A stretch of 49,805 nt of DNA. Source: an uncultured archaeon. GTDB lineage: Archaea; Iainarchaeota; Iainarchaeia; JAADDC01. The position numbers were made by a program, and so were the translations under genes. The notes under the pieces were generated by a model. The model did no database searches. It saw nothing but the letters and a program-made list of their open reading frames with translations, and was not told where the DNA came from. Below are positions 1-39,630 of this stretch, in pieces (position 1 is the first letter of the stretch; each line of letters starts with the position of its first letter). Where the stretch lies: the NCBI GenBank assembly GCA_964451455.1, contig CAYVHT010000002.1, positions 1 through 49,805 of the forward strand. The letters run 5' to 3'.

Positions 1-231
1 TGTCCCATCCGTGAGATCTGTCCTTATCCCACGTTTCACGAGTCGTACCTTTTGACGGGCGATCCTCTGCTGCCACCTGCGCGTGCTTGTGCTGTGCATT
101 ATGCCATTGTGCTTGCACTGTATAGTGTTGTCCGTGAACAACGCATAGATTTTTCCAAATGTCCATCAATTAACAATGTGATGCGCCGATTTTACATTAT
201 GGGTGGTGATGATGTTTATTCGGAGTTGTGA
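1..231 (+). CDS. 3' end of an ORF entering from upstream of the window (function unknown)
   Basis: Frame +1 is open from nt 1 to TGA 229-231 (CPIREICPYPTFHES...MGGDDVYSEL*). It is absent from the ORF track because no start lies in the window. No motif recognised. Confidence 0.3.
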   Translation, partial: CPIREICPYPTFHESYLLTGDPLLPPARACAVHYAIVLALYSVVREQRIDFSKCPSINNVMRRFYIMGGDDVYSEL

Positions 232-745
232 CCGTGCTGCAGCGCTTCTGCGCAGGTTTTCGGACATTTTGGATCCGGCACAGCTAAATGCCTTCTCAGA
301 AGCGCTGCAAATCATACGTGCTGATTTTGAGGTAATGCTATCTGGCGGGCGCGTGCATTGTGGTCAAGCACGTGTGGATTCTGTGATTTGTGCACTAACT
401 GAGCTGCAATCTCTTGTGGTTTACGGGCCCTTATCTTCAGATATTTTAGATTTTGTAACGGTGTTCATGAACTGTGCATATAACTGGAACAAGAATGGTT
501 GTAATTCTGCTGTTGTGTACAAGCTCCTTGAAAATACGCAGGGCATTATTGATGGCAATATGTCATTATCTCAGGTGGTGTCTCAAATGTCACGCATATC
601 TGCAACGCTTTTAGCCACTGTCGGGTCTTCCGAGGCTTATAAATTGTCTAAAGAATATTTGCGGGTAATTCTTGGCGGTGGATTTATTGAGGGCGAGCCG
701 ACAGCTTCGCGGGCTCACGATTCAGGATCTTGCGGGGACGATTAA
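203..745 (+). CDS. hypothetical protein (180 aa)
   Basis: ORF track (GTG 203; in-frame ATG 209/212). Looks soluble and helical; no family recognised. Stop TAA 743-745 lies inside the TATA-like element of the next gene. Confidence 0.5.
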   Translation: MVMMFIRSCDRAAALLRRFSDILDPAQLNAFSEALQIIRADFEVMLSGGRVHCGQARVDSVICALTELQSLVVYGPLSSDILDFVTVFMNCAYNWNKNGCNSAVVYKLLENTQGIIDGNMSLSQVVSQMSRISATLLATVGSSEAYKLSKEYLRVILGGGFIEGEPTASRAHDSGSCGDD

Positions 746-757
746 ATTAAATATTTC
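743..757 (+). promoter_or_regulatory. TATA-like element for the His-x-x repeat gene (leaderless mRNA geometry)
   Basis: TTAAATTAAATATTT is centred about 25 nt upstream of GTG 775, the position expected for an archaeal TATA box placing the transcription start at or near the start codon. Confidence 0.45.
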
Positions 758-774
758 CCTGCACTATTATCTTC

Positions 775-1290
775 GTGGCCAAGAAGAACCTGCTTGCTTT
801 CATCAGATCCGAAGACGCCGGTTCTACTGGGGACAAGGTTGCCCGGGCGGGTGCGATCTTGGCAGGAATTGCGGCGGTTCCATTCATGCTCAATGGCGCT
901 TCTGCCGCCCACACAAACAGCATAACTGGCTCCTTTTCGTCTGGAACGATCACCGCAACTCACCAACACCACTCTTCTCATGCTTCCCACGCCTCCCACT
1001 CCCAACATACATCCCACGGCTCTCACGCCTCCCACTCCCAACACACGTCCCACGGCTCCCACTCCTCCCATTCCTCACACTCCTCCCACTCTTCTCACTC
1101 CTCCCACTCTTCCCATTCCTCCCACTCTTCTCACTCCTCACACTCTTCTCACTCATCCCATTCCTCCCATTCCTCACACTCCTCCCACGCCTCCCACTCC
1201 CAACACAGTTCTCACGGCTCTCATGGCAGCTGCGCTTGTGGCGGAGGGTGTGTGACTATTAGTCGTCAAACTACGACAATGCCTGGCTGA
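775..1290 (+). CDS. His-x-x triad repeat protein (171 aa) with signal-peptide-like N-terminus and C-terminal CACGGGC motif; candidate substrate of the adjacent radical SAM enzymes
   Basis: ORF track, GTG start. The N-terminus has a charged 20 aa, then hydrophobic AGAILAGIAAVPFML, then ASA/A. There are 29 consecutive in-frame H-x-x triads (nt 970-1230), followed by CACGGGC (1231-1251). Other-frame ORFs over the repeat are shadows. Confidence 0.8.
   Translation: MAKKNLLAFIRSEDAGSTGDKVARAGAILAGIAAVPFMLNGASAAHTNSITGSFSSGTITATHQHHSSHASHASHSQHTSHGSHASHSQHTSHGSHSSHSSHSSHSSHSSHSSHSSHSSHSSHSSHSSHSSHSSHSSHASHSQHSSHGSHGSCACGGGCVTISRQTTTMPG
970..1230 (+). repeat. In-frame 9-nt (H-x-x) tandem repeat, 29 units; 14 perfect HSS units at 1060-1185
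   Basis: Codon-by-codon reading gives HSS HAS HAS HSQ HTS HGS HAS HSQ HTS HGS, then (HSS)x14, then HAS HSQ HSS HGS HGS. Synonymous codons are mixed (cac/cat; tcc/tct/tca), so the repeat is perfect at protein level and imperfect at DNA level. Confidence 0.95.
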
Positions 1291-1299
1291 GGTGATCGG

Positions 1300-2013
1300 A
1301 TGCGCTTACAGTATCCACATTTTCTCGCGCTGGGCGCGACGGTGTTCGCAGTTGTTCTTATTATCATGGGCACTGCCCCACACAGCAAAATAGTTCTCAC
1401 GTACTCTGGGAGCAGAAGCGATCTTCAATGGCTTATTTCTCCAAACACGGACCTGTTCTACAGGTCTATGTTTGATAAAAATCTTTACGCTGCTTTCATG
1501 AAGATCGCAGAGAATAATATAGCAGAACTCATTCTTTGCAAGGATCCTACGCAGTATTTTTGCTGTATTAATCTCCTGTCCGAGCTTGGTCCAGGAGTTG
1601 ATTCTGCAGCGTTCCCACGCATAGATATTAACACCCTGTGCTTTGACTTGTCCAAGCCAGTGTGTGATTGTCGGATCGCATACTACTTAAAAACAGCCCC
1701 TGATGCCGATATCAATTACTTGCGTGAACATATAATCCTCCCAAGTAGGCGGGATGTGGCCCGTCTTCCATCCCCTGTACGCGGTGCAATGTATTATGCG
1801 CTTGCTCGCATGGACGTGAATGCTTGCCCACTTGTTCCTGGCGATATTGGGGGTCCTGCCTGCGTAGTGCTGCACGACGCTGCAGCCAAGGCGTACTTTT
1901 GCGGAGCATCTCATATTCCCGTAAATTACATTACGGCTTCAACCGAGGCGGATTCTAGGGTCTGCATTCCATTGCTTAGGTACTATTTTGGCTACGGCGA
2001 GGGCAATGCGTGA
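1300..2013 (+). CDS. membrane-anchored Cys-rich hypothetical protein (237 aa)
   Basis: ATG 1300 is preceded by Shine-Dalgarno (SD)-like GAGGTGA (1289-1295), 9 nt after the repeat gene stop. N-terminal TM helix (LALGATVFAVVLIIMG); 10 Cys in the remainder. No family recognised. Confidence 0.7.
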   Translation: MRLQYPHFLALGATVFAVVLIIMGTAPHSKIVLTYSGSRSDLQWLISPNTDLFYRSMFDKNLYAAFMKIAENNIAELILCKDPTQYFCCINLLSELGPGVDSAAFPRIDINTLCFDLSKPVCDCRIAYYLKTAPDADINYLREHIILPSRRDVARLPSPVRGAMYYALARMDVNACPLVPGDIGGPACVVLHDAAAKAYFCGASHIPVNYITASTEADSRVCIPLLRYYFGYGEGNA

Positions 2014-3142
2014 TTTTTCCCTCGCCCTTGACGTGTATTTGAAGGATGCTTGCCCTCTTCGTTGCAAGTATTGCTATCTGCGAAGGCATCCTCATGCTTT
2101 GACCGATTCAAATCGTAATCTCTCTCCGAGTGTGCTGGCGCGTTGGATAGCGGATGCGAGCATTTCAAAGGTGTATATCAATGTGCGTTATGGGGAGCCC
2201 GCTCTCTCTGCGCGTGGTTTGTATAGCTTAATCCAACGCCTTCGTCTGTATGGTGTTGACGTATTGTCAGCAAATGTGGTTACATCCGCTTTTCCATATT
2301 CCCCCGTATTCCCTTTACTATCCACATTGCTAACGACGCGGTTGCAGATATCTGTTGATGGCCCCTACCACGTGAACAGATTTCGAGTTCAGTCCCCCAA
2401 ACTTCATTCCCGCATTGAAGAAAATATTCGCAAGTACTTGGCCCATATGCGTGACAGCAAAATTTCCGCTGCAGTAACCGTCACCGATTTGAATTTGAAT
2501 CGCCTTCAGGATGTTCGGCAGTATTTAGAGGGTCTAGGATTTCCAAGGGCAATGTTTTCTCCTGTTGATGATGGTGTTTCGTTCGTTCTTTCTGGGAGGT
2601 ATGGGGATTATTTGCTACAATCTGCCGAGCTATTTGCTGATGTTTTCTCACGCTGGGAGCGCGGTGAATCCACTTTCCAAGCTCCGATAATGGCTGGACT
2701 AAATTCTCTACTGTATGGAAACTACTCGGAACCGGAAATATGTAATCCCATCAGACGTACTAGCGTTTTTGTTGCTCCGGATGGCAGAGTATTTCCTTGC
2801 ATTCACGCGTATTTATTATATCTTCTAGATCCCGATAATTACTCTAGCTTCCTTCTGGGTTCTATACATCTGGATAGTTTTGAAGATGTTTTTGATCGTT
2901 TTGCAGATGCTGCAGATCTTATTCGCGAGTTCAGATATATGGAGGTGGAACGCTTTTCGGAATATGGTATACTCCTTGGGTGCGAGTTCGCTTTGCACGA
3001 TTTTGCTCAACTTCATAACGTTTCTACAGATTATATTTATCAGCGGGCATCGCCTCAGGTGGAAAAGGTGCGACCGGCAGTTTTGGATCTTCTATCCACA
3101 TTTTCAAAGGATGAACTCTTGCGCTTCGGGTGGCAGTATTGA
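2006..3142 (+). CDS. radical SAM enzyme with twitch/SPASM-type C-terminal Cys motif (peptide-maturase-like), copy 1
   Basis: CX3CX2C (CPLRCKYC), GEP motif (RYGEPAL), ISVDGP..., and C-x13-G-x4-C (CNPIRRTSVFVAPDGRVFPC). ATG 2006 overlaps the upstream stop TGA 2011-2013. The ORF track lists an upstream TTG at 1988. Confidence 0.85.
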   Translation: MRDFSLALDVYLKDACPLRCKYCYLRRHPHALTDSNRNLSPSVLARWIADASISKVYINVRYGEPALSARGLYSLIQRLRLYGVDVLSANVVTSAFPYSPVFPLLSTLLTTRLQISVDGPYHVNRFRVQSPKLHSRIEENIRKYLAHMRDSKISAAVTVTDLNLNRLQDVRQYLEGLGFPRAMFSPVDDGVSFVLSGRYGDYLLQSAELFADVFSRWERGESTFQAPIMAGLNSLLYGNYSEPEICNPIRRTSVFVAPDGRVFPCIHAYLLYLLDPDNYSSFLLGSIHLDSFEDVFDRFADAADLIREFRYMEVERFSEYGILLGCEFALHDFAQLHNVSTDYIYQRASPQVEKVRPAVLDLLSTFSKDELLRFGWQY

Positions 3143-4179
3143 GTAAATATTCAATACAGGTAATGGTTACCCGTAGGTGCCCTCTTGCGTGCCCATATTG
3201 CTATGTTCAGAAGACCCTCCAAGATATGGACGCTCACGTTCTACGCGCGAGTGTTGATTTTATTAATTCAATTGTGCCTAGAAATGCGGTACTTAATCTT
3301 AATCTTACAGGGGGAGAACCATTTCTGCGTCAAGATATCATCATCTCACTGGTGCGAAGGATTTGGAATATGTGTGTATCTAAATCTTGCCTCCTTCGGG
3401 CGTATGTGAACACATCTGCATATTTGCCTGCAAAATTATCAACACTTTTGACGTTAAATAGTCTTAACGTGTCTGGGATGCGATCGTGGGTAGAGATCTC
3501 CTTAAATGGGCCGGAACACATTAATGATTATCATCGTGTGCTTCCCGGCGGTTTTGGCACTTATCGCGCTAGTTATGGGCATGCTAAGCAAATGTTGAAT
3601 TACGTCCCTGTTTTTATCCGCACAGTGCTACCACCAGTAGCTGCGGAGCACTTGGATGATTATTTGATTTGGTTTGAGCGCCGCTTCCGGGAGGGTTTTT
3701 GGCTGGCAGAGGTGGGGACTGCTATCGGGTACTTTAGCTATTCAGATGATTTCGCCAAATTTTACTCAGAGCTTGTTGACGAGTTATTGAAACTCATTGC
3801 CGATTTATATTTGAATGGCCAATTCATCTTGTGGCGCACTGTTGCCGAGAACGCGCTTTTTTCACAGTCTATTGAGCGAACCACCGAGCCGGTTGAGTAT
3901 CTCCCATGTGCTGCAGGGAAACGGCGGTTTTTGATAGATGTGGATGGTATGGTATACTACTGTACGATGTTCCGTGAGTTTGCTCCGGAGTCTGGAAAAA
4001 TCGGTTCGGTCTTTGACGGTGTGACGCTGTCACCTTTACGCGCCCCTTGCCCCTTATCAGTTTGCAAATCCGGCAGTGGTGCCATAACCAATATGCGCAA
4101 GGATTATTTGCTACTAAAAAAGATTCTCGGCAAGGATTTGTTTCGCGCATATTTGAATGATGCCAAGCGGTGGGTGTGA
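3130..4179 (+). CDS. radical SAM enzyme with twitch/SPASM-type C-terminal Cys motif (peptide-maturase-like), copy 2
   Basis: CX3CX2C (CPLACPYC), LTGGEPFL, ISLNGPEHIND, C-x12-G-x4-C (CAAGKRRFLIDVDGMVYYC), then CPLSVC. GTG 3130 overlaps the stop of copy 1 (3142). Alternative ATG at 3163. Confidence 0.85.
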   Translation: MAVLSKYSIQVMVTRRCPLACPYCYVQKTLQDMDAHVLRASVDFINSIVPRNAVLNLNLTGGEPFLRQDIIISLVRRIWNMCVSKSCLLRAYVNTSAYLPAKLSTLLTLNSLNVSGMRSWVEISLNGPEHINDYHRVLPGGFGTYRASYGHAKQMLNYVPVFIRTVLPPVAAEHLDDYLIWFERRFREGFWLAEVGTAIGYFSYSDDFAKFYSELVDELLKLIADLYLNGQFILWRTVAENALFSQSIERTTEPVEYLPCAAGKRRFLIDVDGMVYYCTMFREFAPESGKIGSVFDGVTLSPLRAPCPLSVCKSGSGAITNMRKDYLLLKKILGKDLFRAYLNDAKRWV

Positions 4180-5519
4180 TGTCCCCTTTTTTTGCGTACT
4201 TGTTATTGTTGGTGTTCGTGGGAGCTCTGGTTGTTGCTATCGCCATATTTTATGCACGTAAATTGTTGCGTCGGAAATGTTGTTTGACGTTGAACGTGCG
4301 CTGGGAGCAGGTGATTGTCGGGGCTGCCGCGTTTACCGTGATTTTAATTCTTGGGGCAAAAGCACCATTATTTGGTGATGACTGTTTTGACCCGTTGATT
4401 TTTCCCTTATTGTGGCGAAATGGTTTTGCAGTTCCATATTTCATGCCTATTGGTATTTTTGTATATTATTTATTATATTTGCTGGTTGGCTTGGGCCCTA
4501 TTTATATGTATGTCTTGATCATGCTCAATGCAATTCTCGCATCTTTGGTGATTGCGCATGCGTGGGGCCGGGTTCGCTGGCTCGCGCTCTTACCACTAAG
4601 TATTCCTCTCGTCCCGTATATTTACGGGTCCCCGTATCTTGTGGCTGGCCTTGCTACAGTATTTGGTTATTTCTCTCTGGTGCGTTTTCGTGATGGGGAT
4701 GAGGTGGGTGGTTTTCTTCTTGGTATTTTGGCCACATATACGCGTGAAGAACTCATCTTAATTCCGTTGTTTTACTTATTTCTCTGGCTTCTTCGAAGGA
4801 GCTGGTCAAAGACCATTCTTGCTGCACTGCTTATTCCCTATTCGCTATTTGTGTATGCATATTCGACTGCGTGGTTGCATCCGCACTTTGATGCATCTAT
4901 CATCCACACTAACGTGTTCGTTCATATTTTCCGCGCATTTATGGCGAACATTCTTGCAGTTGCGGCAGATATTCTAACACTAGTTCCAATAGGTTTCATA
5001 GCGTTGTTTGCGTTTATTGGCAATATCTTTTCATACGTGGGTGGGGAATACTTCAAGCAATATGTGGTGGCGTCACTTCTTCTGCTTCCCGTCATGCGCC
5101 GCATGGATGGTCGGACATCTTTCGTACTTTTCGTAAGTCTGGTACTGCTAAATTGTGCGCTTTTGTACGCTGCGCCACAGCTTCCTTCATTATATCGCGC
5201 CGTTTATGTTCATTTGGCTAAAACATATGCACAGACCAGCGATATCTATGTTGCTGCTTTCGCACGTGGGGTGTATCCACGAGTCCTTGGTATTACTGCC
5301 ACTGCGCCAATCTATGTTCTTTCGGGGGGGAGAGCGAATGTTGTCAATGTTGTAGATACCGCATCTGTGCCCCATTTTGCTTGCAAATATAATGCTCTGC
5401 ACAACGTTGACTATATCGTCTGTGATCGGTTTGTTCGCGAAGTGTGTGGGTGCAATTATGGCCCCGTTGTTCAGAGCTATGGGGACGTCTTTATTGTTTT
5501 GAACGATGCCAAAAAATGA
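4179..5519 (+). CDS. polytopic integral membrane protein (about 11-12 TM), last gene of the repeat/radical SAM operon
   Basis: ATG 4179 overlaps the upstream stop by one nt (TGATG at 4177-4181), with SD-like GGTGGGTG upstream; the ORF track start is GTG 4170. Strongly hydrophobic throughout, with a DD pair in the first predicted external loop (PLFGDDCFDP). Family not recognised. Confidence 0.75.
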   Translation: MSPFFAYLLLLVFVGALVVAIAIFYARKLLRRKCCLTLNVRWEQVIVGAAAFTVILILGAKAPLFGDDCFDPLIFPLLWRNGFAVPYFMPIGIFVYYLLYLLVGLGPIYMYVLIMLNAILASLVIAHAWGRVRWLALLPLSIPLVPYIYGSPYLVAGLATVFGYFSLVRFRDGDEVGGFLLGILATYTREELILIPLFYLFLWLLRRSWSKTILAALLIPYSLFVYAYSTAWLHPHFDASIIHTNVFVHIFRAFMANILAVAADILTLVPIGFIALFAFIGNIFSYVGGEYFKQYVVASLLLLPVMRRMDGRTSFVLFVSLVLLNCALLYAAPQLPSLYRAVYVHLAKTYAQTSDIYVAAFARGVYPRVLGITATAPIYVLSGGRANVVNVVDTASVPHFACKYNALHNVDYIVCDRFVREVCGCNYGPVVQSYGDVFIVLNDAKK

Positions 5520-8429: not shown

Positions 8430-8870
8430 ATGATATACGACCCCTTTGAGGAGATCCGCCGCCTGCACGAGTACATTGACCGTATGTTCGAGGACATGAT
8501 GCGTGTTCCCGCTGTCTCGCCCGGCGATATGACGTTTAGAGCTCCACCTGTAGACGTTGTGGATGAAGGAGATAAGATACGTGTGGTCGCAGAAATCCCG
8601 GGTGTTGACAAGGAGGATCTTGACGTTAGAGTCTTCGAGGATTCCGTGGTAATTCGCGCGGAGCGCAAGCACGAAAATGAACGTAAGGACAAAGGGTATT
8701 ACCTCCGAGAACGTAGTTACTCCTCGTATTACAGAACGATAGCGCTTCCGGCGCCCGTGATCCCAGATCAGGCTGAGGCCACGTATCGCAACGGTGTGCT
8801 TGAGCTCGTGCTTCCCAAGAAGATCCCACAGAAGCAGGAAGGTGGCGGTTTCCGAGTGAACGTCAAGTGA
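8430..8870 (+). CDS. hsp20: small heat shock protein, Hsp20/alpha-crystallin family
   Basis: Alpha-crystallin core: PPVDVVDEGDKIRVVAEIPGVDKEDLDVRV...YRTIALPAPV...ATYRNGVLELVLPK. SD-like GGTGGTGG lies before the ATG. Confidence 0.95.
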   Translation: MIYDPFEEIRRLHEYIDRMFEDMMRVPAVSPGDMTFRAPPVDVVDEGDKIRVVAEIPGVDKEDLDVRVFEDSVVIRAERKHENERKDKGYYLRERSYSSYYRTIALPAPVIPDQAEATYRNGVLELVLPKKIPQKQEGGGFRVNVK

Positions 8871-9219
8871 TTGGCACGAATTCGCAGTTCAGCACGCTGA
8901 AGTCCTTCGTTTCCCCCTCTCTTGCTCCTCGGCCGCAGCGGATCTTGTTTATTTTTTCTTCTTTTTCTCCAAGCGAGAATATGACTGTGCTGCCCTCACA
9001 GCGGTAGTGGATGCTGAACGGAAGATGCACGGTGTATCCAGATCCTGAGCAGTTTTGTGCCGCGTCTTTTGCCAGCGCTACCGCGTAATTCAGCCGCTTT
9101 ATTTCTAAGTTCGTTGAAACTGCGTTCCACACCTTATAATACGTTCCCATTATGCCGAACACTGCTGCCGCTATTGCGGTCATTGTGATGAGCGTTTCAA
9201 GAGCTACTTGCGCCTTCAC
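8863..9219 (-). CDS. type IV pilin-like protein (class III signal peptide)
   Basis: N-terminus MKA/QVALETLITMTAIAAAVFGI: short basic n-region, A/Q junction, Glu at +5, hydrophobic helix. Confidence 0.65.
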   Translation of the reverse strand: MKAQVALETLITMTAIAAAVFGIMGTYYKVWNAVSTNLEIKRLNYAVALAKDAAQNCSGSGYTVHLPFSIHYRCEGSTVIFSLGEKEEKINKIRCGRGAREGETKDFSVLNCEFVPIT

Positions 9220-9392
9220 TTCGTATCGCCGAGTTTGTCTAACTCTTTCATCAAGTTATCTGTGGTGTTGTCGTACTTGTCTCCCAGCTTTTTCGCAGAT
9301 GAGTTCAGTTTGTCTATGAGAAACAGCGCCAGAGCAGCCATAGCCGCGATGACAATGAGGAGCTCCGCCGAGACCTGAGCACGGTTGTCCAT
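9216..9392 (-). CDS. small type IV pilin-like protein (class III signal peptide), 58 aa
   Basis: Starts at internal ATG 9392 (MDNRA/QVSAELLIVIAAMAALALFLI). The track start 9464 would overlap the divergent gene. A TATA-like ATAAAAA lies about 30 nt upstream. Confidence 0.65.
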   Translation of the reverse strand: MDNRAQVSAELLIVIAAMAALALFLIDKLNSSAKKLGDKYDNTTDNLMKELDKLGDTK

Positions 9393-9426
9393 TTCAGTTA
9401 AATATTCTTCTCCGTGAGATAAAAAG

Positions 9427-9996
9427 GTGATGCTCAGCAAGCGGGAGCTACAGGATCTTTTCATATCTTGGATAACCTTGTCTGTTGCTTTCGCCTGGGA
9501 TCTGCACTTCCAAGCGTTTCTATTGCGCCTCCCGCTTTACCTGGTCGTGGTTGCCACAGCTTTTATCTTCCACGAGCTTGGGCACAAGTACTCCGCAATT
9601 CGTCTCGGCTACTACGCCGAATATCGCGCATGGACGTGGGGTCTGGTACTCGCAATTCTTCTTGCGGCCACATCTCCCTTTGTATTCGCCGCGCCTGGTG
9701 CGGTATATATCCTTGGCTCTCCCAATCGCCGTGACAATGGGATTATTTCTCTTGCGGGTCCCCTGGTCAATCTCATCATAGCGGTACTTTGTTTTGCTCT
9801 TCTCTTCTTCCAAGTTCTCCCGCAGTTCGCTCTATGGATTTACGCGGTTGGTTATGTCAACACTTTCCTTGGCCTGTTTAACATGCTTCCGGTTTATCCC
9901 TTGGATGGTTCTAAGGTCTTTGCTTGGGACAAGGGTGCTTACTTCGCCACGGTTTTGGCGTTTCTTGCAGCATACGCACTATACGCAGCCATCTGA
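9427..9996 (+). CDS. site-2 protease family (M50) intramembrane zinc metalloprotease
   Basis: HELGH (HExxH) sits in a TM helix and NMLPVYPLDGSKV is the LDG motif. Multi-TM. GTG 9427 / ATG 9430. Confidence 0.85.
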   Translation: MMLSKRELQDLFISWITLSVAFAWDLHFQAFLLRLPLYLVVVATAFIFHELGHKYSAIRLGYYAEYRAWTWGLVLAILLAATSPFVFAAPGAVYILGSPNRRDNGIISLAGPLVNLIIAVLCFALLFFQVLPQFALWIYAVGYVNTFLGLFNMLPVYPLDGSKVFAWDKGAYFATVLAFLAAYALYAAI

Positions 9997-15850: not shown

Positions 15851-16323
15851 ACTGGGAGCTCTTGCTGTGGATCGTCCCGGCCTACGTGGCCAACTCCACG
15901 GCAACCCTCTCCAAATTTTTTCCCAAGCGACACCCCATAGACGCGGGATATGTTTGTAGGGATGGGAGAAGGCTTCTGGGCAACGGCAAGACCTGGGAGG
16001 GTCTCATAATAGGTATAACCTTTGGAACCTTGGCGGGGTGGCCGCTTTTCTGGTATTTCCACATCCCGTACAATGCGTTTCTCGTGGCGTTCGGTGCGCT
16101 TCTGGGAGATATCGTCGGATCCTTTGCTAAGAGGCGTATAGGGCTGGACCGCGGCGCTGAAGCTCCAGTTATAGACCAGTTAGACTTTATATTCGGTGCC
16201 TTCGCCCTTGGCGGCCCGTTGCCTGCAGAATACTCCGCGCTTTTCCTCCTGATCACACCTATCATCCACCGCACGGCCAACATCATTGGCTACATCATCG
16301 GTGTGAAGAATGAGCCGTGGTGA
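15847..16323 (+). CDS. carS: CDP-archaeol synthase (CarS)
   Basis: PAYVANSTATL...GNGKTWEGLIIG...GDIVGSFAKRRIG..DRG...VIDQLDF...NEPW-COOH. This closely parallels the AF1740-type CarS pattern. Confidence 0.8.
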   Translation: MNWELLLWIVPAYVANSTATLSKFFPKRHPIDAGYVCRDGRRLLGNGKTWEGLIIGITFGTLAGWPLFWYFHIPYNAFLVAFGALLGDIVGSFAKRRIGLDRGAEAPVIDQLDFIFGAFALGGPLPAEYSALFLLITPIIHRTANIIGYIIGVKNEPW

Positions 16324-16735
16324 GTACCTGCGCCTCATTGCTCTATTCTTCGTTCTTTACATCGCCCTCAGGTACACACTTGGCTCTCTCCTCATTCGTC
16401 CCACTACTTCTTTTCTATCTTTCCTCCTCGGCTGCTCTGGTAATGGTGAAACGCTCGTCTGCGGTGACTACGCATACGAGATTATTCCCGAATGCACAGG
16501 CATCGTCTCCATTGCCCTCTTCCTCGCTCTGCTATACGTTTTCCGCGTTCCTCGTTCTCGCGCTCTTCGTGTTGTTCTCTTTGGCTCCATTGCGTTATAC
16601 CTCTTGGACGTGGCTCGCGTGTACGCCCTCATCCGTTTCACGCACTCTATATCCGCCTTTGACTTCTGGCATACCGTTTCTTGGTTCGTTGCACCTATTC
16701 TCATCGTGGCATACGTGCTTTGGCTGGCGAAGTAA
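16310..16735 (+). CDS. small exosortase/archaeosortase-family protein (141 aa)
   Basis: Four or five TM helices with a candidate Cys-Arg-His triad in the usual order: IIPECTGIVS, LLDVARVYAL, FWHTVSWF. Overlaps the carS stop by 14 nt. Confidence 0.55.
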   Translation: MSRGEYLRLIALFFVLYIALRYTLGSLLIRPTTSFLSFLLGCSGNGETLVCGDYAYEIIPECTGIVSIALFLALLYVFRVPRSRALRVVLFGSIALYLLDVARVYALIRFTHSISAFDFWHTVSWFVAPILIVAYVLWLAK

Positions 16736-20243: not shown

Positions 20244-21836
20244 GTGGGGTATCTCAAGGATTTGCTTGAGGAAGCCAAGGGCAAGAACAAGAATGGAGAG
20301 TCCACTTTGGACTCTGAAGCGGCTGTTAAGAAGCAGAATGATGCGTCAATTTCATCCTCTGAGCCGTCCGGCATTGAAGGGAAGGAGAAAGTGCTCGTGG
20401 ATTCCTACGGAGATGTCAAAATCTATCGTGTGAAGGGCGATCCGCTATTCTGGTATGTCGTTCCCGTTCCGCGACCGACGTCGGGTGAGCGCAAGATTAT
20501 AAACCTTTTGAAGGAGGCTACAACCCGTATAGTATCTCTCACGACGTCTCAGATCCGTGATCCTGAGGCGAAGAAGAATGTATATCGCCAGAAAGTCCTT
20601 GAGATCATCGATTCAGTTCCTGAGCTGGGTATCCCTCGGACGAAAAGAGAGTTCTACGCAGAGGTCGTTGTAAGGGAAATGGTTGGCTACGGCGTGTTAG
20701 ATCCCCTCGTGAACGATGAGCTGCTGGAAGAGATCATGGTTATCGGCCCCAAACGCCCTGTTTACGTCTTCCACCGCAAGTATGGGATGATGAAAACCAA
20801 TGTGGAGTTTTACGAGGACAAAGAGATTCAAGCAATCATCGAGAAGATTGCCAGAGATGTTAACAGGCATATCGATGCGATGAATCCGCTCCTTGATGCT
20901 CGCCTGCCCGACGGCTCTCGTGTGAACGCTACTATTCCACCTGCTTCTGTGGATGGTTCTACGATCACTATTAGAAAGTTCCGCAAGGATCCGTACACCG
21001 TTCTTGATCTTATCGGGTTCGGGACAATGTCCCCAGAGCTCGCTGCATTTCTCTGGTTGGCTGTTGATGGTATGGGTGCTAAACCAGCCAACATTCTTGT
21101 CTCTGGTGGTACCGGTTCTGGAAAGACCACAACGCTAAACGTTCTTGCTACGTACATTCCCGCTCACGAACGTATTATTACAATAGAGGACACTGCAGAG
21201 CTTAATTTGCCTTTGGAGCACTGGGTGCGTTTAGAGGCTCGCCCGCCAAGCATAGAAGGAACTGGAGAGATCTCCATGGACGTTCTCGTGAAGAACGCCC
21301 TGCGCATGCGCCCGGACCGCATCATAGTGGGGGAGGTACGTCACAAGGAGGCGTCTACTCTGTTTACAGCTATGAACACTGGCCACGATGGTTGTATGGG
21401 CACAATTCACGCCAACAGTGCTGAGGAGACCATGGTGCGCATCATGTCACCACCCATGAACGTTCCGAAGGTTATGGCAAGCGCGCTAGATTTCATACTC
21501 GTTCAGAACCGCATCCATGATCGTAGAAAGGGTACTATCCGTCGCGTTGTAGAGTTTGCAGAGGTTCGCGAGGTGGATGGGGATCCCAGAACGTTCACGA
21601 TATTCTCATGGGATGCTGCCAAGGACGAGCAGGTGTTGGTGGACGAGGACATACGTTACTTGAAGACTCTTTCAGACTTTACTGGCTTGAGCATTGATGA
21701 GTTGCGGGACGAGTGGAAAAGGAGAAAGGACTACCTGGAGAGGTTGAGGAACAGCGGCGTCAAGGGCATTAAAGCCGTCAAGTCTGCAATTCAGGAGTAT
21801 TACGAGGGGGCTGAGAAACGATGGAAGAAGATGTAG
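20244..21836 (+). CDS. type IV pilus/archaellum-type secretion ATPase (VirB11/PilB/ArlI family)
   Basis: Walker A VSGGTGSGKTTTLNVL, Walker B RIITIEDTAEL, RMRPDRIIVGEVR, HDGCMGTIHAN. Confidence 0.9.
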   Translation: MGYLKDLLEEAKGKNKNGESTLDSEAAVKKQNDASISSSEPSGIEGKEKVLVDSYGDVKIYRVKGDPLFWYVVPVPRPTSGERKIINLLKEATTRIVSLTTSQIRDPEAKKNVYRQKVLEIIDSVPELGIPRTKREFYAEVVVREMVGYGVLDPLVNDELLEEIMVIGPKRPVYVFHRKYGMMKTNVEFYEDKEIQAIIEKIARDVNRHIDAMNPLLDARLPDGSRVNATIPPASVDGSTITIRKFRKDPYTVLDLIGFGTMSPELAAFLWLAVDGMGAKPANILVSGGTGSGKTTTLNVLATYIPAHERIITIEDTAELNLPLEHWVRLEARPPSIEGTGEISMDVLVKNALRMRPDRIIVGEVRHKEASTLFTAMNTGHDGCMGTIHANSAEETMVRIMSPPMNVPKVMASALDFILVQNRIHDRRKGTIRRVVEFAEVREVDGDPRTFTIFSWDAAKDEQVLVDEDIRYLKTLSDFTGLSIDELRDEWKRRKDYLERLRNSGVKGIKAVKSAIQEYYEGAEKRWKKM

Positions 21837-22987
21837 ACTTGAACGATCTTAAGAAGACTATTCTTGGCGATTCTAAAAAGAACGCTCCCAAACAGCCAGT
21901 GTCGGATAGGAAACAGGAAAAGAAGACAATAGATAGCGTTGATGAGATTGTACAGAGGATAGAGGAGAAGTACAGGCAGGAAGGGGCCTATATTCGGCGC
22001 GAAAACGCCGAGCCGGAGATCGATATTAACAAGGTGTTGGCTCCAGAGGTTACGGTCTCGGGCAGCCCTGCAGATCTTGCCGAGTCTGACAGCGGTTTCA
22101 TACGTTTTGCGGGAAAGATCTACTTGAAGTTCCAATCTTTCTTTGACTCTCTTGCGAATCGCATATCCAGTTCAGATTTCCTAAAAAAGCTGGATTGGGA
22201 CCTCTATGCTGCGGGTCTTCCCTTTACGGGCTCGCAGTACCTGATACTCACCCTTGTCATCGCATCCGTGTTGGCGTTGATAGCATTCTTCATCTCTATT
22301 CCCATCTTTTTGGTCCGCGGAAACCCCGTACTTGTGGCTATCGGCCCAATCCTGCTATCCTTTTTGGTGTTTCTGTTTACATACGGCTTTGCCCGCGTGT
22401 ATCCACAATCCATAGCCTCTAACCGTTCCCGCGCAGCTGAGCGGTATCTCCCCTTTGCTCTTCGCCATCTCGCTGTGGAGATCCGTGCAGGCATGGGTCT
22501 ATATCAGGCCATGCGTGCAGTGGCTGTCGCTAACTATGGAGAGCTTTCAGAGGAGTTTAAGCGCACCCTTCGTGAGATCGATGAAGGGAAGCCTATGGAG
22601 GTAGCTCTCTCAAACCTTGCAGCCCGTTCGAAGAGCAAGGGCATGCGCAGGGCGGTTGCTTCCATTCTTCGTGCTGTCAGGATTGGTGGGAACTTGTCAG
22701 ATACGATTATGAGCATCGCGAAGGACGTCTCATTTGAGCAGAGGCAGAAAGTGGCTGCTTACAGTGAGAAGCTGAATTTCTTTGGCGTACTTTTCATGTT
22801 CGTAGGTGTCGTGTTTCCTGTGATGCTAGCCATGCTGTCCACGATCGGATATGCACCAACGTCCGGTAAACTCCTTGCCGCGTTTCGTTTCCCGCCCGCC
22901 CTCCTTATGGTGGCGTTCTTGATAGCGTTTCCAGGATTCCTGTTGCTGTTCTACATGTTCGTGAGGATGTCGGATCCAATGAGGTGA
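21821..22987 (+). CDS. T2SS-F domain membrane protein (TadB/TadC / ArlJ-half-like), copy 1
   Basis: YLPFALRHLAVEIRAGMGLYQAMRAV...EFKRTLREIDEGKPMEVAL and flanking TM helices. Overlaps the ATPase stop. Confidence 0.8.
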   Translation: MEEDVDLNDLKKTILGDSKKNAPKQPVSDRKQEKKTIDSVDEIVQRIEEKYRQEGAYIRRENAEPEIDINKVLAPEVTVSGSPADLAESDSGFIRFAGKIYLKFQSFFDSLANRISSSDFLKKLDWDLYAAGLPFTGSQYLILTLVIASVLALIAFFISIPIFLVRGNPVLVAIGPILLSFLVFLFTYGFARVYPQSIASNRSRAAERYLPFALRHLAVEIRAGMGLYQAMRAVAVANYGELSEEFKRTLREIDEGKPMEVALSNLAARSKSKGMRRAVASILRAVRIGGNLSDTIMSIAKDVSFEQRQKVAAYSEKLNFFGVLFMFVGVVFPVMLAMLSTIGYAPTSGKLLAAFRFPPALLMVAFLIAFPGFLLLFYMFVRMSDPMR

Positions 22988-22991
22988 AGTT

Positions 22992-23937: not shown

Positions 23938-24135
23938 ATGGATAATCGCGGTCAGACCACATTTGAGTACCTTTTGCTCGTGGGCGGCGTAGTCGTGCTC
24001 GGCGTCCTCGTGGTCTATCTGTTGACCACTAGCGTGAAGAGCAGTGCAACGGATATAAATGAGCAGCTGAAGCAGACGACCACGGCGCTGAATACGGCAA
24101 CCAACAGGTATGCGAATAACATTGCGAATATCTAA
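23938..24135 (+). CDS. small type IV pilin (class III signal peptide), 65 aa
   Basis: ATG 23938 is preceded by GGAGGTGG. N-terminus MDNRG/QTTFEYLLLVGGVVVLGVLVVYLL. Confidence 0.8.
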   Translation: MDNRGQTTFEYLLLVGGVVVLGVLVVYLLTTSVKSSATDINEQLKQTTTALNTATNRYANNIANI

Positions 24136-30436: not shown

Positions 30437-30782
30437 CTACATCCCCCCTTATTTCTACCCAGATTGGCGGCACGGCGCTATCCTCCCCGTAGGATATACG
30501 CCCTACGGTTAATGGATCTCTTTCCAGCGGGAATACAATGGAATCTCCTTTCTTTCGCGATTTAAATAGAAAGTACGTTCTGGCGGCTATTTTTTCCCGG
30601 GATATTGCCCGTATTAGTGAGTCCACGGCGTCTTCTCCACCTTCAGCAACTATTTTATCGTCATATTCTGTGACAGACACATCTCCAAATACTTTGCGTA
30701 TTGCTGCTGCTATCCTTTCCCGGGATTCCGTGGGAAGCACGTTGCAGACGATAGTCACGCTAAGAGATGGCATTGAATACAC
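30393..30782 (-). CDS. hypothetical protein (129 aa)
   Basis: ORF track. Lies between the second secretion ATPase and the secreted protein. No motif recognised with confidence. Confidence 0.5.
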   Translation of the reverse strand: MYSMPSLSVTIVCNVLPTESRERIAAAIRKVFGDVSVTEYDDKIVAEGGEDAVDSLIRAISREKIAARTYFLFKSRKKGDSIVFPLERDPLTVGRISYGEDSAVPPIWVEIRGDVDEVLERIRSIADGN

Positions 30783-39614: not shown

Positions 39615-39624
39615 TGGACCGGAA

Positions 39625-39630
<6 letters not shown>
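39615..39630 (-). other. 3' arm of the 23S processing stem
   Basis: TGGACCGGAAACGCAG (plus) is the perfect reverse complement of 42605-42620. Confidence 0.8.

What the first reader, a model, noticed from the sequence alone, without database searches (positions are those of the whole stretch)
970..1251. Protein-level-perfect, DNA-level-imperfect HSS repeat: 29 in-phase His-x-x triads followed by CACGGGC
Seen: nt 970-1230 encode HSS HAS HAS HSQ HTS HGS HAS HSQ HTS HGS, where the 12-aa unit HASHSQHTSHGS occurs twice. Then come 14 perfect HSS (1060-1185), then HAS HSQ HSS HGS HGS, then C-A-C-G-G-G-C and a 13-aa tail. The 14 HSS units mix cac/cat and tcc/tct/tca.

Inference from this: the repeat is maintained by selection on the peptide rather than by recent slippage. 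The N-terminus is 20 charged residues, then AGAILAGIAAVPFML, then ASA/A, which looks like a Sec signal or leader.

Established: His-rich tracts bind Ni/Zn/Cu (Hpn-like proteins). Period-3 aromatic-x-x motifs are what three-residue cyclophane-forming radical SAM enzymes process iteratively. To my recollection His can serve as the aromatic position in some members, but I cannot verify that here.

Inference: this is either an iteratively crosslinked or oxidised core, or a secreted metal-binding polymer whose Cys cap is crosslinked.
Basis: partly seen in the sequence, partly recalled or inferred. Interest (0 to 1): 0.8.

Follow-up and report, generated by a model that had tools for sequence, protein, structure and literature searches.

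The report
Archaeal His-Xaa-Ser repeat protein operon
The His-x-x tract is the core of an unannotated secreted-type protein of the known "His-Xaa-Ser repeat" class, whose bacterial members are matured by radical SAM enzymes into an anti-phage effector; here it sits in a DPANN archaeon, carries the longest repeat array found in this search, and is paired with two maturase-like enzymes that have almost no relatives.

Summary
ORF 775-1290 (+), 171 aa, carries 30 in-phase His triads (HQH plus the 29 reported). Twenty-six of the 29 are His-x-Ser. They are followed by CACGGGC and a 12-aa tail. In the 14 HSS units all 15 DNA differences are synonymous.

This is the His-Xaa-Ser (Hxs) class, not an unknown kind. 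The non-repeat N-terminus is homologous to at least 39 small proteins, the named ones from DPANN archaea. These align end to end with the NCBIfam HxsA4 and HxsA3 models. In related loci they sit beside HxsB above cut-off, HxsC-like and HxsD-like genes.

The window differs from those loci. It has no HxsD. Its two adjacent radical SAM enzymes fail the HxsB and HxsC cut-offs, lack the HxsB N-terminal domain, and have a half-SPASM (twitch-like) C-terminus. They have zero and one relative in 5.8 billion proteins.

Most likely the precursor is modified in the cytoplasm by the two enzymes and then exported to the envelope. The chemistry (His-Ser crosslink or Cys-cap thioether) and the role (antiviral barrier or metal binding) are unresolved.

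Verdict: new variant of a known kind, moderate interest.

The parts
746..753 (+). Possible archaeal TATA box (TTAAATAT), about 26 nt upstream of the GTG start. This would imply a leaderless transcript.
   Evidence: Read by eye. This is inference only. The sigma-70 scan does not apply to archaea.
775..1290 (+). Precursor gene, 171 aa, GTG start. It encodes a His-Xaa-Ser repeat protein like HxsA3/HxsA4 and is unannotated in public gene calls.
   Evidence: Searches give the ORF. An in-frame stop at 748-750 excludes a longer N-terminus. JGI called antisense ORFs here instead. The exact protein is absent from the 15-billion-protein collection. It gives weak hits to HxsA4 (23.3 bits) and HxsA3 (20.3 bits).
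775..846 (+). Polar N-terminal leader, residues 1-24 (AKKNLLAFIRSEDAGSTGDKVAR). It corresponds to the family motif IKKKISxFLxEEGKISK.
   Evidence: Alignment A2. A phmmer search with the N-terminus alone gave 39 hits, the best at 36.9 bits.
847..909 (+). Hydrophobic helix AGAILAGIAAVPFML (residues 25-39) followed by NGASAA (residues 40-45). This is a putative signal-peptide h-region and A-x-A cleavage site placed just before the conserved His46.
   Evidence: Kyte-Doolittle hydropathy peaks at 2.14 over residues 25-39. The AAH(T/S)N motif is conserved across the family. Cleavage itself is inferred.
910..960 (+). Conserved spacer HTNSITGSFSSGTITAT (residues 46-62), lying between the putative cleavage site and the repeats.
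   Evidence: It aligns with AAHTNSxxxSYxxGTITxTH in the relatives.
961..1230 (+). The repeat array: 30 in-phase His triads (HQH plus 29). Twenty-six of the 29 are His-x-Ser, and 14 are perfect HSS (1060-1185).
1231..1251 (+). Cys cap CACGGGC (residues 153-159).
   Evidence: Similar CAC...GGG caps occur in the relatives P0019, P0029 and P0116.
1252..1290 (+). C-terminal tail VTISRQTTTMPG (12 aa) plus the stop codon.
   Evidence: P0009 also ends in ...TPG.
1300..2013 (+). 237-aa protein with one N-terminal transmembrane helix and a domain carrying 10 Cys, likely outside the cytoplasm. It starts 10 nt after the precursor stop. Its function is unknown.
   Evidence: It matches no Pfam, NCBIfam or PADLOC family. 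A protein of the same architecture but no detectable similarity holds the same position in locus L169.
1988..3142 (+). rSAM1, 384 aa. It has a CPLRCKYC radical SAM cluster motif at residues 22-29 and a half-SPASM (twitch-like) motif, C251-x13-G-x4-C270, plus C331. It overlaps the previous gene by 26 nt.
   Evidence: Pfam gives Radical_SAM at 31.2 bits and SPASM at 22.6 bits. The best NCBIfam hit is PapB at 44 bits against a cut-off of 340. It has no homologue among 5.8 billion proteins and no sequence match in the PDB.
3130..4179 (+). rSAM2, 349 aa. It has CPLACPYC at residues 17-24 and a half-SPASM motif C260-x12-G-x4-C278 plus C307. It is a remote, truncated HxsB-like enzyme and overlaps rSAM1 by 13 nt.
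   Evidence: NCBIfam gives PapB 86.2 bits (cut-off 340), HxsB 38.9 (370) and HxsC 27.4 (267.9). It has one real homologue, P0002, at 40% identity. It is 26-28% identical over about 320 aa to archaeal HxsB proteins, with E-values of 1e-14 to 1e-10. The AlphaFold model has pTM 0.74, and Foldseek's top hits are CteB, anSME, ChlB, SuiB and SkfB.
4170..5519 (+). Polytopic membrane protein, 449 aa (446 aa if it starts at the ATG at 4179), with a C-terminal soluble domain of about 70 aa. It overlaps the end of rSAM2. Its function is unknown.
   Evidence: It matches no family. It has one relative, P0130 at 30% identity, among 1.84 billion representative proteins. The AlphaFold model is poor, with pLDDT 46. 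An hhalign comparison with the PMT_2 proteins of related loci was negative.

Best explanation
**What it is.** The tract is the core of a ribosomally made His-Xaa-Ser repeat protein. It is a divergent archaeal relative of HxsA3/HxsA4. Its gene is the first of a tightly packed five-gene operon (775-5519) in a probable Diapherotrites (DPANN) archaeon.

**How it most likely works.** These steps are inferred.
1. The 171-aa precursor is made with a conserved polar leader and a hydrophobic helix.
2. While it is still in the cytoplasm, the two radical SAM enzymes encoded two and three genes downstream abstract hydrogen from side chains of the core. Both are peptide-maturase-type enzymes with a single auxiliary-cluster (twitch-like) domain. 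They install covalent modifications on HxS motif(s) and/or on the CACGGGC cap.
3. The protein is then exported through its hydrophobic segment and cut near ASA|AH. This leaves an extracellular or envelope-associated array of about 30 imidazoles spaced every third residue.
4. The co-transcribed single-pass Cys-rich protein and the polytopic membrane protein act on the outer face, in handling, anchoring or further modification.

**Likely role.** By analogy with the only studied member (E. coli HXS), the mature array may be an envelope-located barrier against incoming viral DNA. Metal capture is the main alternative.

**Shown versus inferred.** Shown: the repeat, its purifying selection, homology of the leader to HxsA4-type proteins, the family-wide linkage to radical SAM genes, and the peptide-maturase fold of rSAM2. 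Inferred: that these two enzymes act on this protein, the chemistry, the export and cleavage, and the biological role.
For: - **Repeat and selection.** A relative (L163) encodes the same HxS repeats mainly with AGT/AGC serine codons, whereas the window uses TCN. Conservation is therefore at the peptide level, not the DNA level.
- **Leader homology without the repeats.** A phmmer search with the N-terminus alone gave 39 hits, up to 36.9 bits (alignment A2).
- **The relatives are HxsA-type.** All 39 hit HxsA4 and HxsA3. The matches cover the full length of the profile (positions 1-91 of 93). P0009 (78.6 bits) and P0019 (67.7 bits) exceed the 55-bit cut-off.
- **The relatives' loci hold Hxs machinery.** HxsB scores 483.8, 423.9 and 386.8 bits against a cut-off of 370. 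HxsC-like proteins score 200-208 bits, which is their best hit. HxsD_rel scores 55.9 and 41.5 bits against a cut-off of 41.
- **Linkage to radical SAM genes.** They lie next to the precursor in all 9 relatives' loci examined.
- **Matching gene order.** L169 shows the same local order as the window: precursor, single-pass Cys-rich protein, then two radical SAM genes.
- **rSAM2 identity.** Among all radical SAM proteins of these loci, its closest relatives are the HxsB proteins. Its model superposes on peptide-modifying SPASM/twitch enzymes.
- **Operon structure.** The gaps and overlaps are +10, -26, -13 and -10 nt.
- **Function of the prototype.** PMC13128918.
- **Organism.** Archaeal rRNA and RNase P RNA are present. 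A protein at least 90% identical to a window protein is named Candidatus Diapherotrites.
Against: - The precursor fails every curated HxsA cut-off. It scores 23.3 bits against 55 and 20.3 against 65, and has no TIGR03979 hit.
- Neither enzyme meets the HxsB or HxsC cut-offs. Both lack the roughly 90-aa N-terminal domain of HxsB.
- No HxsD is present anywhere in the 49.8 kb.
- The enzymes have essentially no orthologues, so co-evolution with the precursor cannot be shown.
- The neighbouring genes are housekeeping genes (CDC48, MCM, Hsp20), not a defence island.
- The contexts of related loci (PMT_2, DUF2079 and GT2 glycosyltransferases, very large Ig-like proteins) suggest cell-surface biogenesis rather than defence.
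- The E. coli mechanism relies on a peptidoglycan-binding domain and basic residues in the repeats. Both are absent here.
- Canonical HxsBCD genes could exist elsewhere in the genome.
Confidence: 0.62

Rival explanations
1. Iterative three-residue cyclophane (triceptide-like) formation. One or both enzymes link His-C2 to Ser-C-beta in each H-x-S unit. This would turn the array into a stiff chain of up to about 26-30 small rings. It is a specific chemistry within the best explanation, not a separate system.
For: - His is a proven aromatic position. HaaB links His-C2 to Ala-C-beta on HAA, HtkB acts on HTK and YhhB on HNR.
- Period 3 is strictly kept. Position 3 is Ser in 85% of triads and position 2 is a small residue (S/G/A) in 90% across 39 relatives.
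- The best PDB sequence hit of rSAM2 is the triceptide synthase ChlB, at E = 3e-5. ChlB is also among the structural neighbours.
Against: - The scores against every cyclophane-synthase model are far below cut-off. AmcB gives 30.6 bits against 425, FxsB 19 against 370 and YhhB 27 against 445.
- CteB (thioether) and anSME are closer structural neighbours than ChlB.
- The only experimental datum for an Hxs system is a single +8 Da change on one SHRSS motif. It is not -2 Da per repeat.
- Both enzymes have only a half-SPASM domain.
Confidence: 0.15
2. A secreted metal-binding polymer. The poly-His/Ser array chelates Ni, Zn or Cu outside the cell. The radical SAM enzymes act only on the CACGGGC cap, forming thioether (sacti- or ranthi-type) links that knot or anchor the C-terminus.
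For: - The protein is 19% His and has an export-type N-terminus.
- The best family hits of both enzymes are thioether-forming Cys-peptide maturases: PapB, CcpM, the CXXX-repeat family and QhpD.
- The closest structure is the sactipeptide synthase CteB.
- Cys-rich tails are frequent in the family. They occur in 17 of 39 relatives, and in 10 of the 12 with 16 or more repeats.
- CAC-type caps recur in P0019, P0029 and P0116.
Against: - 14 of 39 relatives have no Cys in the tail yet still sit beside radical SAM genes. L164, with the tail GGGRADDL, has six.
- HxsB proteins also have PapB as their second-best hit, so the PapB similarity is clade-level and does not point to a chemistry.
- The PapB cut-off is missed by a wide margin.
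- No acceptor Asp or Glu lies near the cap, as ranthipeptides require.
Confidence: 0.2
3. The adjacent radical SAM enzymes serve another substrate, for example the Cys-rich 237-aa protein. The HxS protein is then either matured by canonical HxsBCD encoded elsewhere in the genome, or not modified at all.
For: - The enzymes lack an HxsB-type N-terminal peptide-binding domain, and there is no HxsD.
- The window starts only 200 nt upstream of the operon, so the left flank and the rest of the genome are unseen.
- Many relatives carry true HxsB, HxsC and HxsD.
Against: - The genes overlap in a tight operon.
- The gene order recurs in L169.
- rSAM2's nearest relatives among the locus enzymes are HxsB proteins.
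- The 237-aa protein has a membrane anchor and an extracytoplasmic-type Cys-rich domain. That is an unlikely substrate for cytoplasmic radical SAM enzymes.
Confidence: 0.13
4. A non-functional low-complexity ORF, or the real gene lies on the opposite strand, as the JGI gene caller assumed.
For: JGI called two antisense ORFs across the region. The protein is absent from all public gene calls.
Against: - All 15 differences among the HSS units are synonymous in this frame only. The antisense frames are irregular or contain stops.
- The non-repeat leader is conserved in 39 proteins.
- The gene lies on the same strand as, and 10 nt from, the next gene.
Confidence: 0.02

Closest known systems
HXS anti-phage system, HxsA/HxsB/HxsC/HxsD (defined in silico by Haft & Basu 2011, J Bacteriol 193:2745, which is not held in the library; function shown by Li et al. 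2026, Nat Commun, PMC13128918)
   Same: - The target protein has an N-terminal export signal and tandem His-Xaa-Ser repeats.
- Two adjacent radical SAM genes lie in the same operon.
- Modification is expected in the cytoplasm before export.
- rSAM2 is remotely HxsB-like.
   Different: - The host is archaeal, whereas the paper reports 99.7% Pseudomonadota (it surveyed bacteria only).
- There are 29-30 repeats instead of 5.
- The repeats carry no basic residues, and there is no peptidoglycan-binding domain.
- There is no HxsD.
- Both enzymes fall far below the HxsB and HxsC cut-offs and lack the HxsB N-terminal domain.
- The gene order is precursor first, whereas the prototype order is D-B-C-A.
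- There are two extra membrane proteins and a Cys cap.
NCBIfam HxsA4 (NF038313) and HxsA3 (NF038309) repeat-protein subfamilies, with HxsC4 (NF038332) and HxsD_rel (NF038315)
   Same: The architecture is the same: a K-rich leader with an FLxEEGxISK-like motif, a hydrophobic helix, AAH, and then HxS repeats. The DPANN relatives of the window protein match these profiles end to end, and some pass the cut-off.
   Different: - The window protein scores only 23.3 and 20.3 bits, and only over the repeats.
- Its leader is degenerate (AFIRSEDAGSTGDKVAR).
- Its array is longer than in any of the 39 relatives.
- The partner enzymes are not HxsB, HxsC, HxsC4 or HxsD.
Triceptides, the three-residue cyclophane RiPPs made by 3-CyFE radical SAM/SPASM enzymes, including the His-modifying HaaB, HtkB and YhhB
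   Same: An aromatic-x-x motif with His at position 1 is repeated in phase. A radical SAM maturase of the same broad SPASM clade lies next to it.
   Different: - The maturases are not members of any 3-CyFE family by curated models.
- The target is a 171-aa exported protein with 30 motifs rather than a short peptide with a few.
- Position 3 is Ser, for which no cyclophane has been reported in the papers read.
Sactipeptide and ranthipeptide maturases (CteB, PapB, SkfB) and anSME
   Same: These are the closest structural neighbours and the best family hits of rSAM2. A Cys-bearing C-terminal motif is present in the substrate. SkfB also has a reduced (twitch) auxiliary domain.
   Different: The scores are 4- to 8-fold below the family cut-offs. 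There is no Cx3D/E acceptor pattern. The Cys cap is not conserved in the precursor family.
His-rich metal-storage proteins such as Helicobacter Hpn and Hpn-like (recalled from general knowledge, not tested here)
   Same: Very high His content.
   Different: Hpn-type proteins are cytoplasmic. They have no leader, no strict period-3 H-x-S register, and no dedicated radical SAM partners.

Membership tests
His-Xaa-Ser (HXS) system | A target protein with tandem His-Xaa-Ser repeats downstream of an N-terminal export signal | tested here: met
   26 of 29 triads are H-x-S. A hydrophobic helix plus an A-x-A site precedes them.
His-Xaa-Ser (HXS) system | The target protein reaches a curated HxsA model cut-off (TIGR03979 121.65, NF038296 48, NF038309 65, NF038313 55 bits) | tested here: not met
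   NF038313 scores 23.3 bits and NF038309 scores 20.3 bits. TIGR03979 and NF038296 give no hit at E <= 0.1.
His-Xaa-Ser (HXS) system | Homology of the non-repeat leader to recognised HxsA-type proteins | tested here: met
   A phmmer search with the N-terminus alone gave 39 hits (14-37 bits). Those proteins match HxsA4 and HxsA3 over their full length, and two exceed the cut-off.
His-Xaa-Ser (HXS) system | HxsB radical SAM/SPASM maturase (TIGR03978, at least 370 bits) | tested here: not met
   rSAM2 scores 38.9 bits and rSAM1 scores 24.0 bits, over the N-terminal core only. The relatives' loci score 387-484 bits.
His-Xaa-Ser (HXS) system | HxsC radical SAM maturase (TIGR03977, at least 267.9 bits, or HxsC4 NF038332) | tested here: not met
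   rSAM2 scores 27.4 bits and rSAM1 gives no hit. No other radical SAM gene in the window resembles HxsC.
His-Xaa-Ser (HXS) system | HxsD or HxsD-like small protein (TIGR03976, NF038315; Pfam PF27806) | tested here: not met
   NCBIfam gives no hit for the flanking proteins. A phmmer search with five archaeal HxsD proteins against all window ORFs found nothing. The hhalign probability is below 0.1 for the 180-aa and 237-aa proteins. PF27806 itself is not in the Pfam copy available here.
His-Xaa-Ser (HXS) system | Two radical SAM genes adjacent to each other and to the repeat-protein gene | tested here: met
   rSAM1 (1988-3142) and rSAM2 (3130-4179) overlap by 13 nt. They start 0.7 kb downstream of the precursor.
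His-Xaa-Ser (HXS) system | Peptidoglycan-binding domain on HxsA (the E. coli prototype) | tested here: not met
   The precursor has no Pfam domain. Archaea of this kind lack peptidoglycan (general knowledge).
His-Xaa-Ser (HXS) system | Radical-SAM-dependent covalent modification and N-terminal processing of the repeat protein, and an antiviral phenotype | not testable with these tools
   This needs expression, mass spectrometry and infection assays.
Triceptides (3-CyFE cyclophane RiPPs) | Aromatic-X-X motif(s) in the core | tested here: met
   There are 30 in-phase H-x-x triads. His is accepted by HaaB, HtkB and YhhB.
Triceptides (3-CyFE cyclophane RiPPs) | Maturase belonging to a cyclophane-synthase family (XyeB, GrrM/OscB, FxsB, YhhB, AmcB models) | tested here: not met
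   The best scores are AmcB 30.6 against 425, FxsB 19.2 against 370 and YhhB 27.3 against 445 bits.
Triceptides (3-CyFE cyclophane RiPPs) | A crosslink from the aromatic carbon to C-beta of residue 3 (-2 Da per motif) | not testable with these tools
   This needs MS and NMR.
Sacti-/ranthipeptides | Maturase reaching the PapB, SCIFF or sactisynthase family cut-offs, with a full seven-Cys SPASM domain | tested here: not met
   PapB scores 86.2 and 44.4 bits against a cut-off of 340. Only the CX12-13GX4C half of SPASM plus one conserved Cys is present.
Sacti-/ranthipeptides | Cys donors in the core peptide | tested here: met
   CACGGGC at residues 153-159. The Cys tail is absent in 14 of 39 relatives.

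The most novel reading that the evidence does not exclude
A minimal pair of twitch-type radical SAM enzymes, with essentially no relatives and with neither a leader-binding domain nor HxsD, processively crosslinks about 30 His-x-Ser units. It also knots the CACGGGC cap. The product would be a rigid, protease-resistant poly-imidazole rod displayed on the surface of a DPANN archaeon. This would be a new protein-scale RiPP chemistry. It could also be the first archaeal envelope barrier against viral genome entry, or a metal or host-contact fibre of an episymbiont.
Probability: 0.1. Interest if true: 0.85.

Novelty: new variant of a known kind. Interest (0 to 1): 0.55.

Why it matters
- **Wider distribution of the class.** The His-Xaa-Ser class has just acquired a function, blocking phage DNA entry in E. 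coli. Its chemistry is unsolved, and it was reported as essentially proteobacterial. This locus and its relatives show the class is widespread in DPANN archaea, with longer arrays (up to about 30 repeats), Cys-rich caps and rich enzyme sets.
- **A tractable substrate.** A 29-repeat substrate would multiply any per-repeat mass change. It is also a natural His-tag. That makes it a convenient handle for working out what Hxs-type radical SAM enzymes do.
- **Modular recruitment.** The window shows the precursor can be paired with radical SAM enzymes outside the HxsB and HxsC families. This suggests maturases are recruited in a modular way.
- **Annotation gap.** The gene is missed by the public gene calls checked: the JGI caller placed antisense ORFs over it, and the exact protein is absent from the 15-billion-protein collection. 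Low-complexity precursors of this kind may therefore be under-counted more widely.

Tried and rejected
1. **Orthologue hunt for the enzymes.** The rSAM2 protein search found one 40% relative on a 1.7-kb contig. The rSAM1 search found none. Scans of 185,579 species genomes and of JGI metagenomes with the rSAM2 alignment returned only generic radical SAM genes (PqqE-like and others), not even the source contig. I compared the precursor family instead.
2. **A syntenic contig reached through the MCM cluster.** L173 proved to be the same population, 99.9% identical, and stops before the precursor. It gave no information on repeat-number variation.
3. **Membrane protein as a GT-C/PMT-like glycosyltransferase.** PMT_2 genes occur in three related loci. 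However, there was no Pfam hit even at E = 10 and no phmmer hit to the PMT_2 or DUF2079 proteins. The hhalign probability was 0.2. The single-sequence AlphaFold model was too poor to search with (pLDDT 46). The exhaustive search found one relative with no family assignment. The idea is unsupported, though not excluded.
4. **HxsD analogue among the flanking proteins.** Negative.
5. **The 237-aa protein against the 230-aa protein at the same position in L169.** No similarity. They share only architecture and position.
6. **Defence annotation.** PADLOC gave only generic viperin-level radical SAM hits. PADLOC 2023 predates HXS.
7. **Promoter and terminator scan.** It was at background level and is not applicable to archaea.
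8. **Base composition.** The operon has slightly lower GC (45-50% against about 50-51%). This is too weak to call an island.
9. **Codon tally across relatives.** The script failed because the script service stopped responding. I replaced it by reading one relative's DNA directly.
10. **Class III (pilin-type) signal idea.** A24 peptidase-like genes occur in two Hxs loci. The leader lacks the usual [KR]-[GA]|hydrophobic cut site, and no A24 gene lies in the operon. This remains a side note.
Full report
**1.

Window 775-1290 (+) is a 171-aa ORF with a GTG start. An in-frame stop at 748-750 rules out a longer N-terminus. The protein reads:

MAKKNLLAFIRSEDAGSTGDKVAR-AGAILAGIAAVPFML-NGASAA-HTNSITGSFSSGTITAT-HQH-(29 H-x-x triads)-CACGGGC-VTISRQTTTMPG

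The triads, their order, the duplicated 12-aa unit and the 14 perfect HSS units (1060-1185) are exactly as reported. Tandem Repeats Finder gives period 9, 24 copies and score 194.

Small corrections:
- The tail is 12 aa, not 13.
- The first 24 residues are polar with 8 charged residues, not '20 charged'.
- HQH is also in phase, giving 30 triads (residues 63-152).
- 26 of the 29 triads are specifically His-x-Ser.

A JGI metagenome contig (L002) is 99.88% identical to window 4-4196 and has no difference inside the ORF. The array is therefore not an assembly artefact.

**2. Selection acts on the peptide.**

The 14 HSS units occur in 7 DNA versions. They carry 15 differences from CACTCCTCC, all at third codon positions and all synonymous. 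Only 7 of the 27 possible single substitutions are synonymous. Even the minimum of five independent events therefore gives p of about 1e-3.

All other frames give irregular or stop-containing peptides. A Diapherotrites relative (L163) writes the same HxS repeats mostly with AGT/AGC serine codons, whereas the window uses TCC/TCT/TCA. That relative also shows a recently duplicated 54-nt block. The arrays therefore grow by unit duplication but are held by purifying selection on His at position 1 and Ser at position 3.

**3. What it is: a His-Xaa-Ser repeat protein.**

NCBIfam gives only weak hits, confined to the repeats: HxsA4 (NF038313) at 23.3 bits against a cut-off of 55, and HxsA3 (NF038309) at 20.3 against 65.

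A protein search with the whole ORF found 234 proteins. The best are small proteins of 95-200 aa. Those that carry an organism name come from Candidatus Diapherotrites, Aenigmarchaeota and Micrarchaeia. They share one architecture:
- a K-rich start,
- an FLxEEGKISK-like motif,
- a hydrophobic helix,
- AAH(T/S)N,
- a short spacer ending GTITxTHxHH,
- HxS repeats,
- a variable C-terminus.

To exclude a low-complexity artefact, I searched with residues 1-62 only against the pre-repeat parts of these proteins. That gave 39 hits at 14-37 bits (alignment A2).

All 39 hit HxsA4 and HxsA3. The ten scanned individually all match them, seven over essentially the whole profile (for example positions 1-91 of 93). 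P0009 (78.6 bits) and P0019 (67.7 bits) exceed the cut-off. A bacterial protein that NCBI names HxsA3 (P0061, Oscillospiraceae) has the same leader logic.

The window protein is thus a divergent member of the HxsA3/HxsA4-like branch. It is homologous by transitive evidence but is not a member by curated thresholds.

**4.

Across the 39 leader-sharing relatives:
- Period 3 is kept. On average 88% of His residues are in phase.
- Position 3 is Ser in 410 of 483 triads.
- Position 2 is S, G or A in 437 of 483.
- Repeat number varies from 5 to 27, with a median of 11. The window's 29-30 is the longest.

The Cys cap is frequent but not defining. The tail has 2 or more Cys in 17 relatives, one Cys in 8 and none in 14, and the spacing is not conserved. 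Ten of the 12 relatives with 16 or more repeats have Cys-rich tails. CAC...GGG caps like the window's recur in P0019, P0029 and P0116. Short members often end in W or Y.

**5. Genomic company of the family.**

I examined nine relatives' loci. Every one has radical SAM genes within about 3 kb of the precursor.

| Component | Locus | Bits | Cut-off |
|---|---|---|---|
| HxsB | L169 | 483.8 | 370 |
| HxsB | L164 | 423.9 | 370 |
| HxsB | L166 | 386.8 | 370 |
| HxsC-like (best hit) | L163, L164, L170 | 200-208 | 267.9 |
| HxsD_rel | L169, L166 | 55.9, 41.5 | 41 |

Precomputed Pfam HxsD (PF27806) hits are also recorded in L163, L164, L166, L167 and L172.

Extra genes recur:
- PMT_2 (GT-C) glycosyltransferases in L163, L164 and L165.
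- DUF2079.
- B12-radical SAM enzymes.
- GT2.
- A24 prepilin-peptidase-like genes in L166/L167 and in the bacterial L172.

DPANN archaea therefore possess genuine His-Xaa-Ser systems. I found no paper describing this. The functional study reports 99.7% Pseudomonadota, but it surveyed bacteria only.

**6. How the window differs.**

The operon has this layout:

| Gene | Coordinates | Junction with the previous gene |
|---|---|---|
| Precursor | 775-1290 | - |
| 237-aa single-pass protein with 10 Cys | 1300-2013 | 10-nt gap |
| rSAM1 | 1988-3142 | 26-nt overlap |
| rSAM2 | 3130-4179 | 13-nt overlap |
| 449-aa polytopic membrane protein | 4170-5519 | 10-nt overlap |

A convergent CDC48 gene follows.

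Both enzymes begin directly with the CX3CX2C motif, so they lack the roughly 90-residue N-terminal domain of HxsB. Both carry only the CX12-13GX4C half of a SPASM domain plus one further conserved Cys, which makes them twitch-like. Their best NCBIfam hits are PapB, at 86.2 and 44.4 bits against 340. HxsB scores 38.9 and 24.0 against 370, and HxsC scores 27.4 against 267.9.

rSAM1 has no homologue among 5.8 billion proteins and no PDB sequence match. rSAM2 has one, P0002, at 40% identity. Genome and metagenome scans found nothing closer.

Among all radical SAM proteins of the Hxs loci, rSAM2 is nonetheless closest to the HxsB proteins. It is 26-28% identical over about 320 residues, with E-values of 1e-14 to 1e-10. 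Its AlphaFold model (pTM 0.74, core pLDDT 80-95) superposes best on CteB, anSME, ChlB, SuiB and SkfB, which are all peptide- or protein-modifying enzymes.

No HxsD, HxsB or HxsC is encoded anywhere in the 49.8 kb. The membrane protein has a single 30% relative among 1.84 billion representative proteins and no family.

Locus L169 shows the same local order: precursor, single-pass Cys-rich protein, radical SAM, radical SAM. Its proteins are not detectably similar in sequence to the window's.

**7. Host.**

The window carries an archaeal 23S rRNA, archaeal RNase P RNA and three tRNAs. A protein in the same 90% cluster as a window protein is named Candidatus Diapherotrites. Two further assemblies of the same population exist, L002 and L173, both at 99.9% identity.

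**8. Mechanism.**

Shown:
- a strongly constrained H-x-S array behind a conserved leader;
- family-wide linkage to radical SAM maturases;
- an operon here with two peptide-maturase-type radical SAM enzymes.

Inferred:
- The enzymes modify the precursor in the cytoplasm, since radical SAM enzymes need reducing conditions and SAM.
- The K-rich leader keeps the N-terminus inside the cell.
- The hydrophobic helix drives export.
- Signal peptidase cuts at ASA|A or SAA|H, immediately before the conserved His46.
- The two membrane proteins act on the exported product.

[quoted passage not shown] Mature periplasmic HxsA binds DNA and blocks phage genome entry. That is the only functional precedent.

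It transfers imperfectly. The archaeal repeats lack basic residues and a peptidoglycan anchor. The archaeal gene neighbourhoods look like surface-biogenesis loci rather than defence islands. I therefore put about 0.6 on 'Hxs-type precursor matured by the adjacent radical SAM pair and exported'. I put only about 0.3 on an antiviral role.

The chemistry is open. His-to-Ser cyclophanes are compatible with the known His triceptides HaaB, HtkB and YhhB, but no family membership supports them. Cys-cap thioethers are compatible with the best family and structural neighbours, but the cap is not conserved in the family.

**9. Novelty and value.**

The kind is known: Haft & Basu 2011, the NCBIfam models, and Li et al. 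2026. New here:
- the archaeal (DPANN) distribution;
- the extreme repeat number;
- the recurrent Cys caps;
- in this window, the pairing of an HxsA-like precursor with two orphan twitch-type radical SAM enzymes and two orphan membrane proteins, without HxsD.

The gene is also unannotated in the public gene calls checked: the JGI caller missed it, and the exact protein is absent from the protein collection. I rate it a new variant of a known kind, with interest 0.55.

Noticed in passing
window 8863-9219 (-) and 9216-9464 (-): Two small proteins have class III (type IV pilin-like) signal peptides: MKAQ|VALETLIT... and ...DNRAQ|VSAELLIVIAAM.... They are probably archaeal pilins. T2SSE/T2SSF-type genes lie at about 20244-23888 and a CpaF-like ATPase at 30760-32289 (-).
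   Followed up: partly
window 9427-9996 (+); L166 8355-8915: The window encodes a 189-aa HExxH (FHELGHK) M50-like intramembrane metalloprotease about 4 kb from the operon. An M50B-like protein sits immediately after the HxS precursor in the Micrarchaeia locus L166. This could be a processing protease for the family.
   Followed up: partly
L166 4740-5807; L167 723-1790; L172 1132-2148; window 24110-25072: A24 prepilin-peptidase-like genes lie inside Hxs loci of a Micrarchaeia archaeon (26.6 bits) and of a bacterial HxsA3 system (20.3 bits). A weakly A24-like ORF exists far from the operon in the window. This hints that the conserved leader might be cut by an A24-type peptidase.
   Followed up: partly
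L163 11753-12670; L164 12090-13535; L165 6305-7990 and 1919-3385: PMT_2 (GT-C) glycosyltransferases and a DUF2079 protein recur next to archaeal HxS precursors. This suggests O-glycosylation of the Ser-rich arrays on the outer face of the membrane.
   Followed up: partly
window 742-1177 (-); L002 744-1153: The JGI gene caller missed the precursor and called two antisense ORFs through the repeat. The true protein is absent from the 15-billion-protein collection.
   Followed up: yes
window 39621-42614 (-), 37233-37469 (-): An archaeal 23S rRNA gene has no 16S gene within the remaining ~7 kb on its upstream side, and none was detected anywhere in the window. Archaeal RNase P RNA lies 2 kb away. 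An rRNA operon split in this way would be consistent with a DPANN genome.
   Followed up: no
window 16310-16735 (+): A 141-aa exosortase/archaeosortase EpsH-like protein is present, by the annotation of the identical contig L173. The HxS protein has no matching C-terminal sorting signal.
   Followed up: no
L168 3025-3447 and 8001-8435: One contig carries two HxS precursors (P0029 and P0019) with (CA)n-type Cys caps. They sit next to a 463-aa radical SAM enzyme that is also not HxsB, and next to a TPR protein. This is a second case of an HxsA-like precursor with non-canonical partners.
   Followed up: partly
L001 1155-1727 (-): The only relative of rSAM2 (P0002) is followed by a convergent gene for another SPASM-type radical SAM protein (...CGGCWTPCE...). 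The contig is too short to show a precursor.
   Followed up: no
window 203-745 (+): A 180-aa protein lies on the same strand and ends 30 nt before the precursor. It matches no family and has no similarity to HxsD. Whether it belongs to the operon is unknown.
   Followed up: partly
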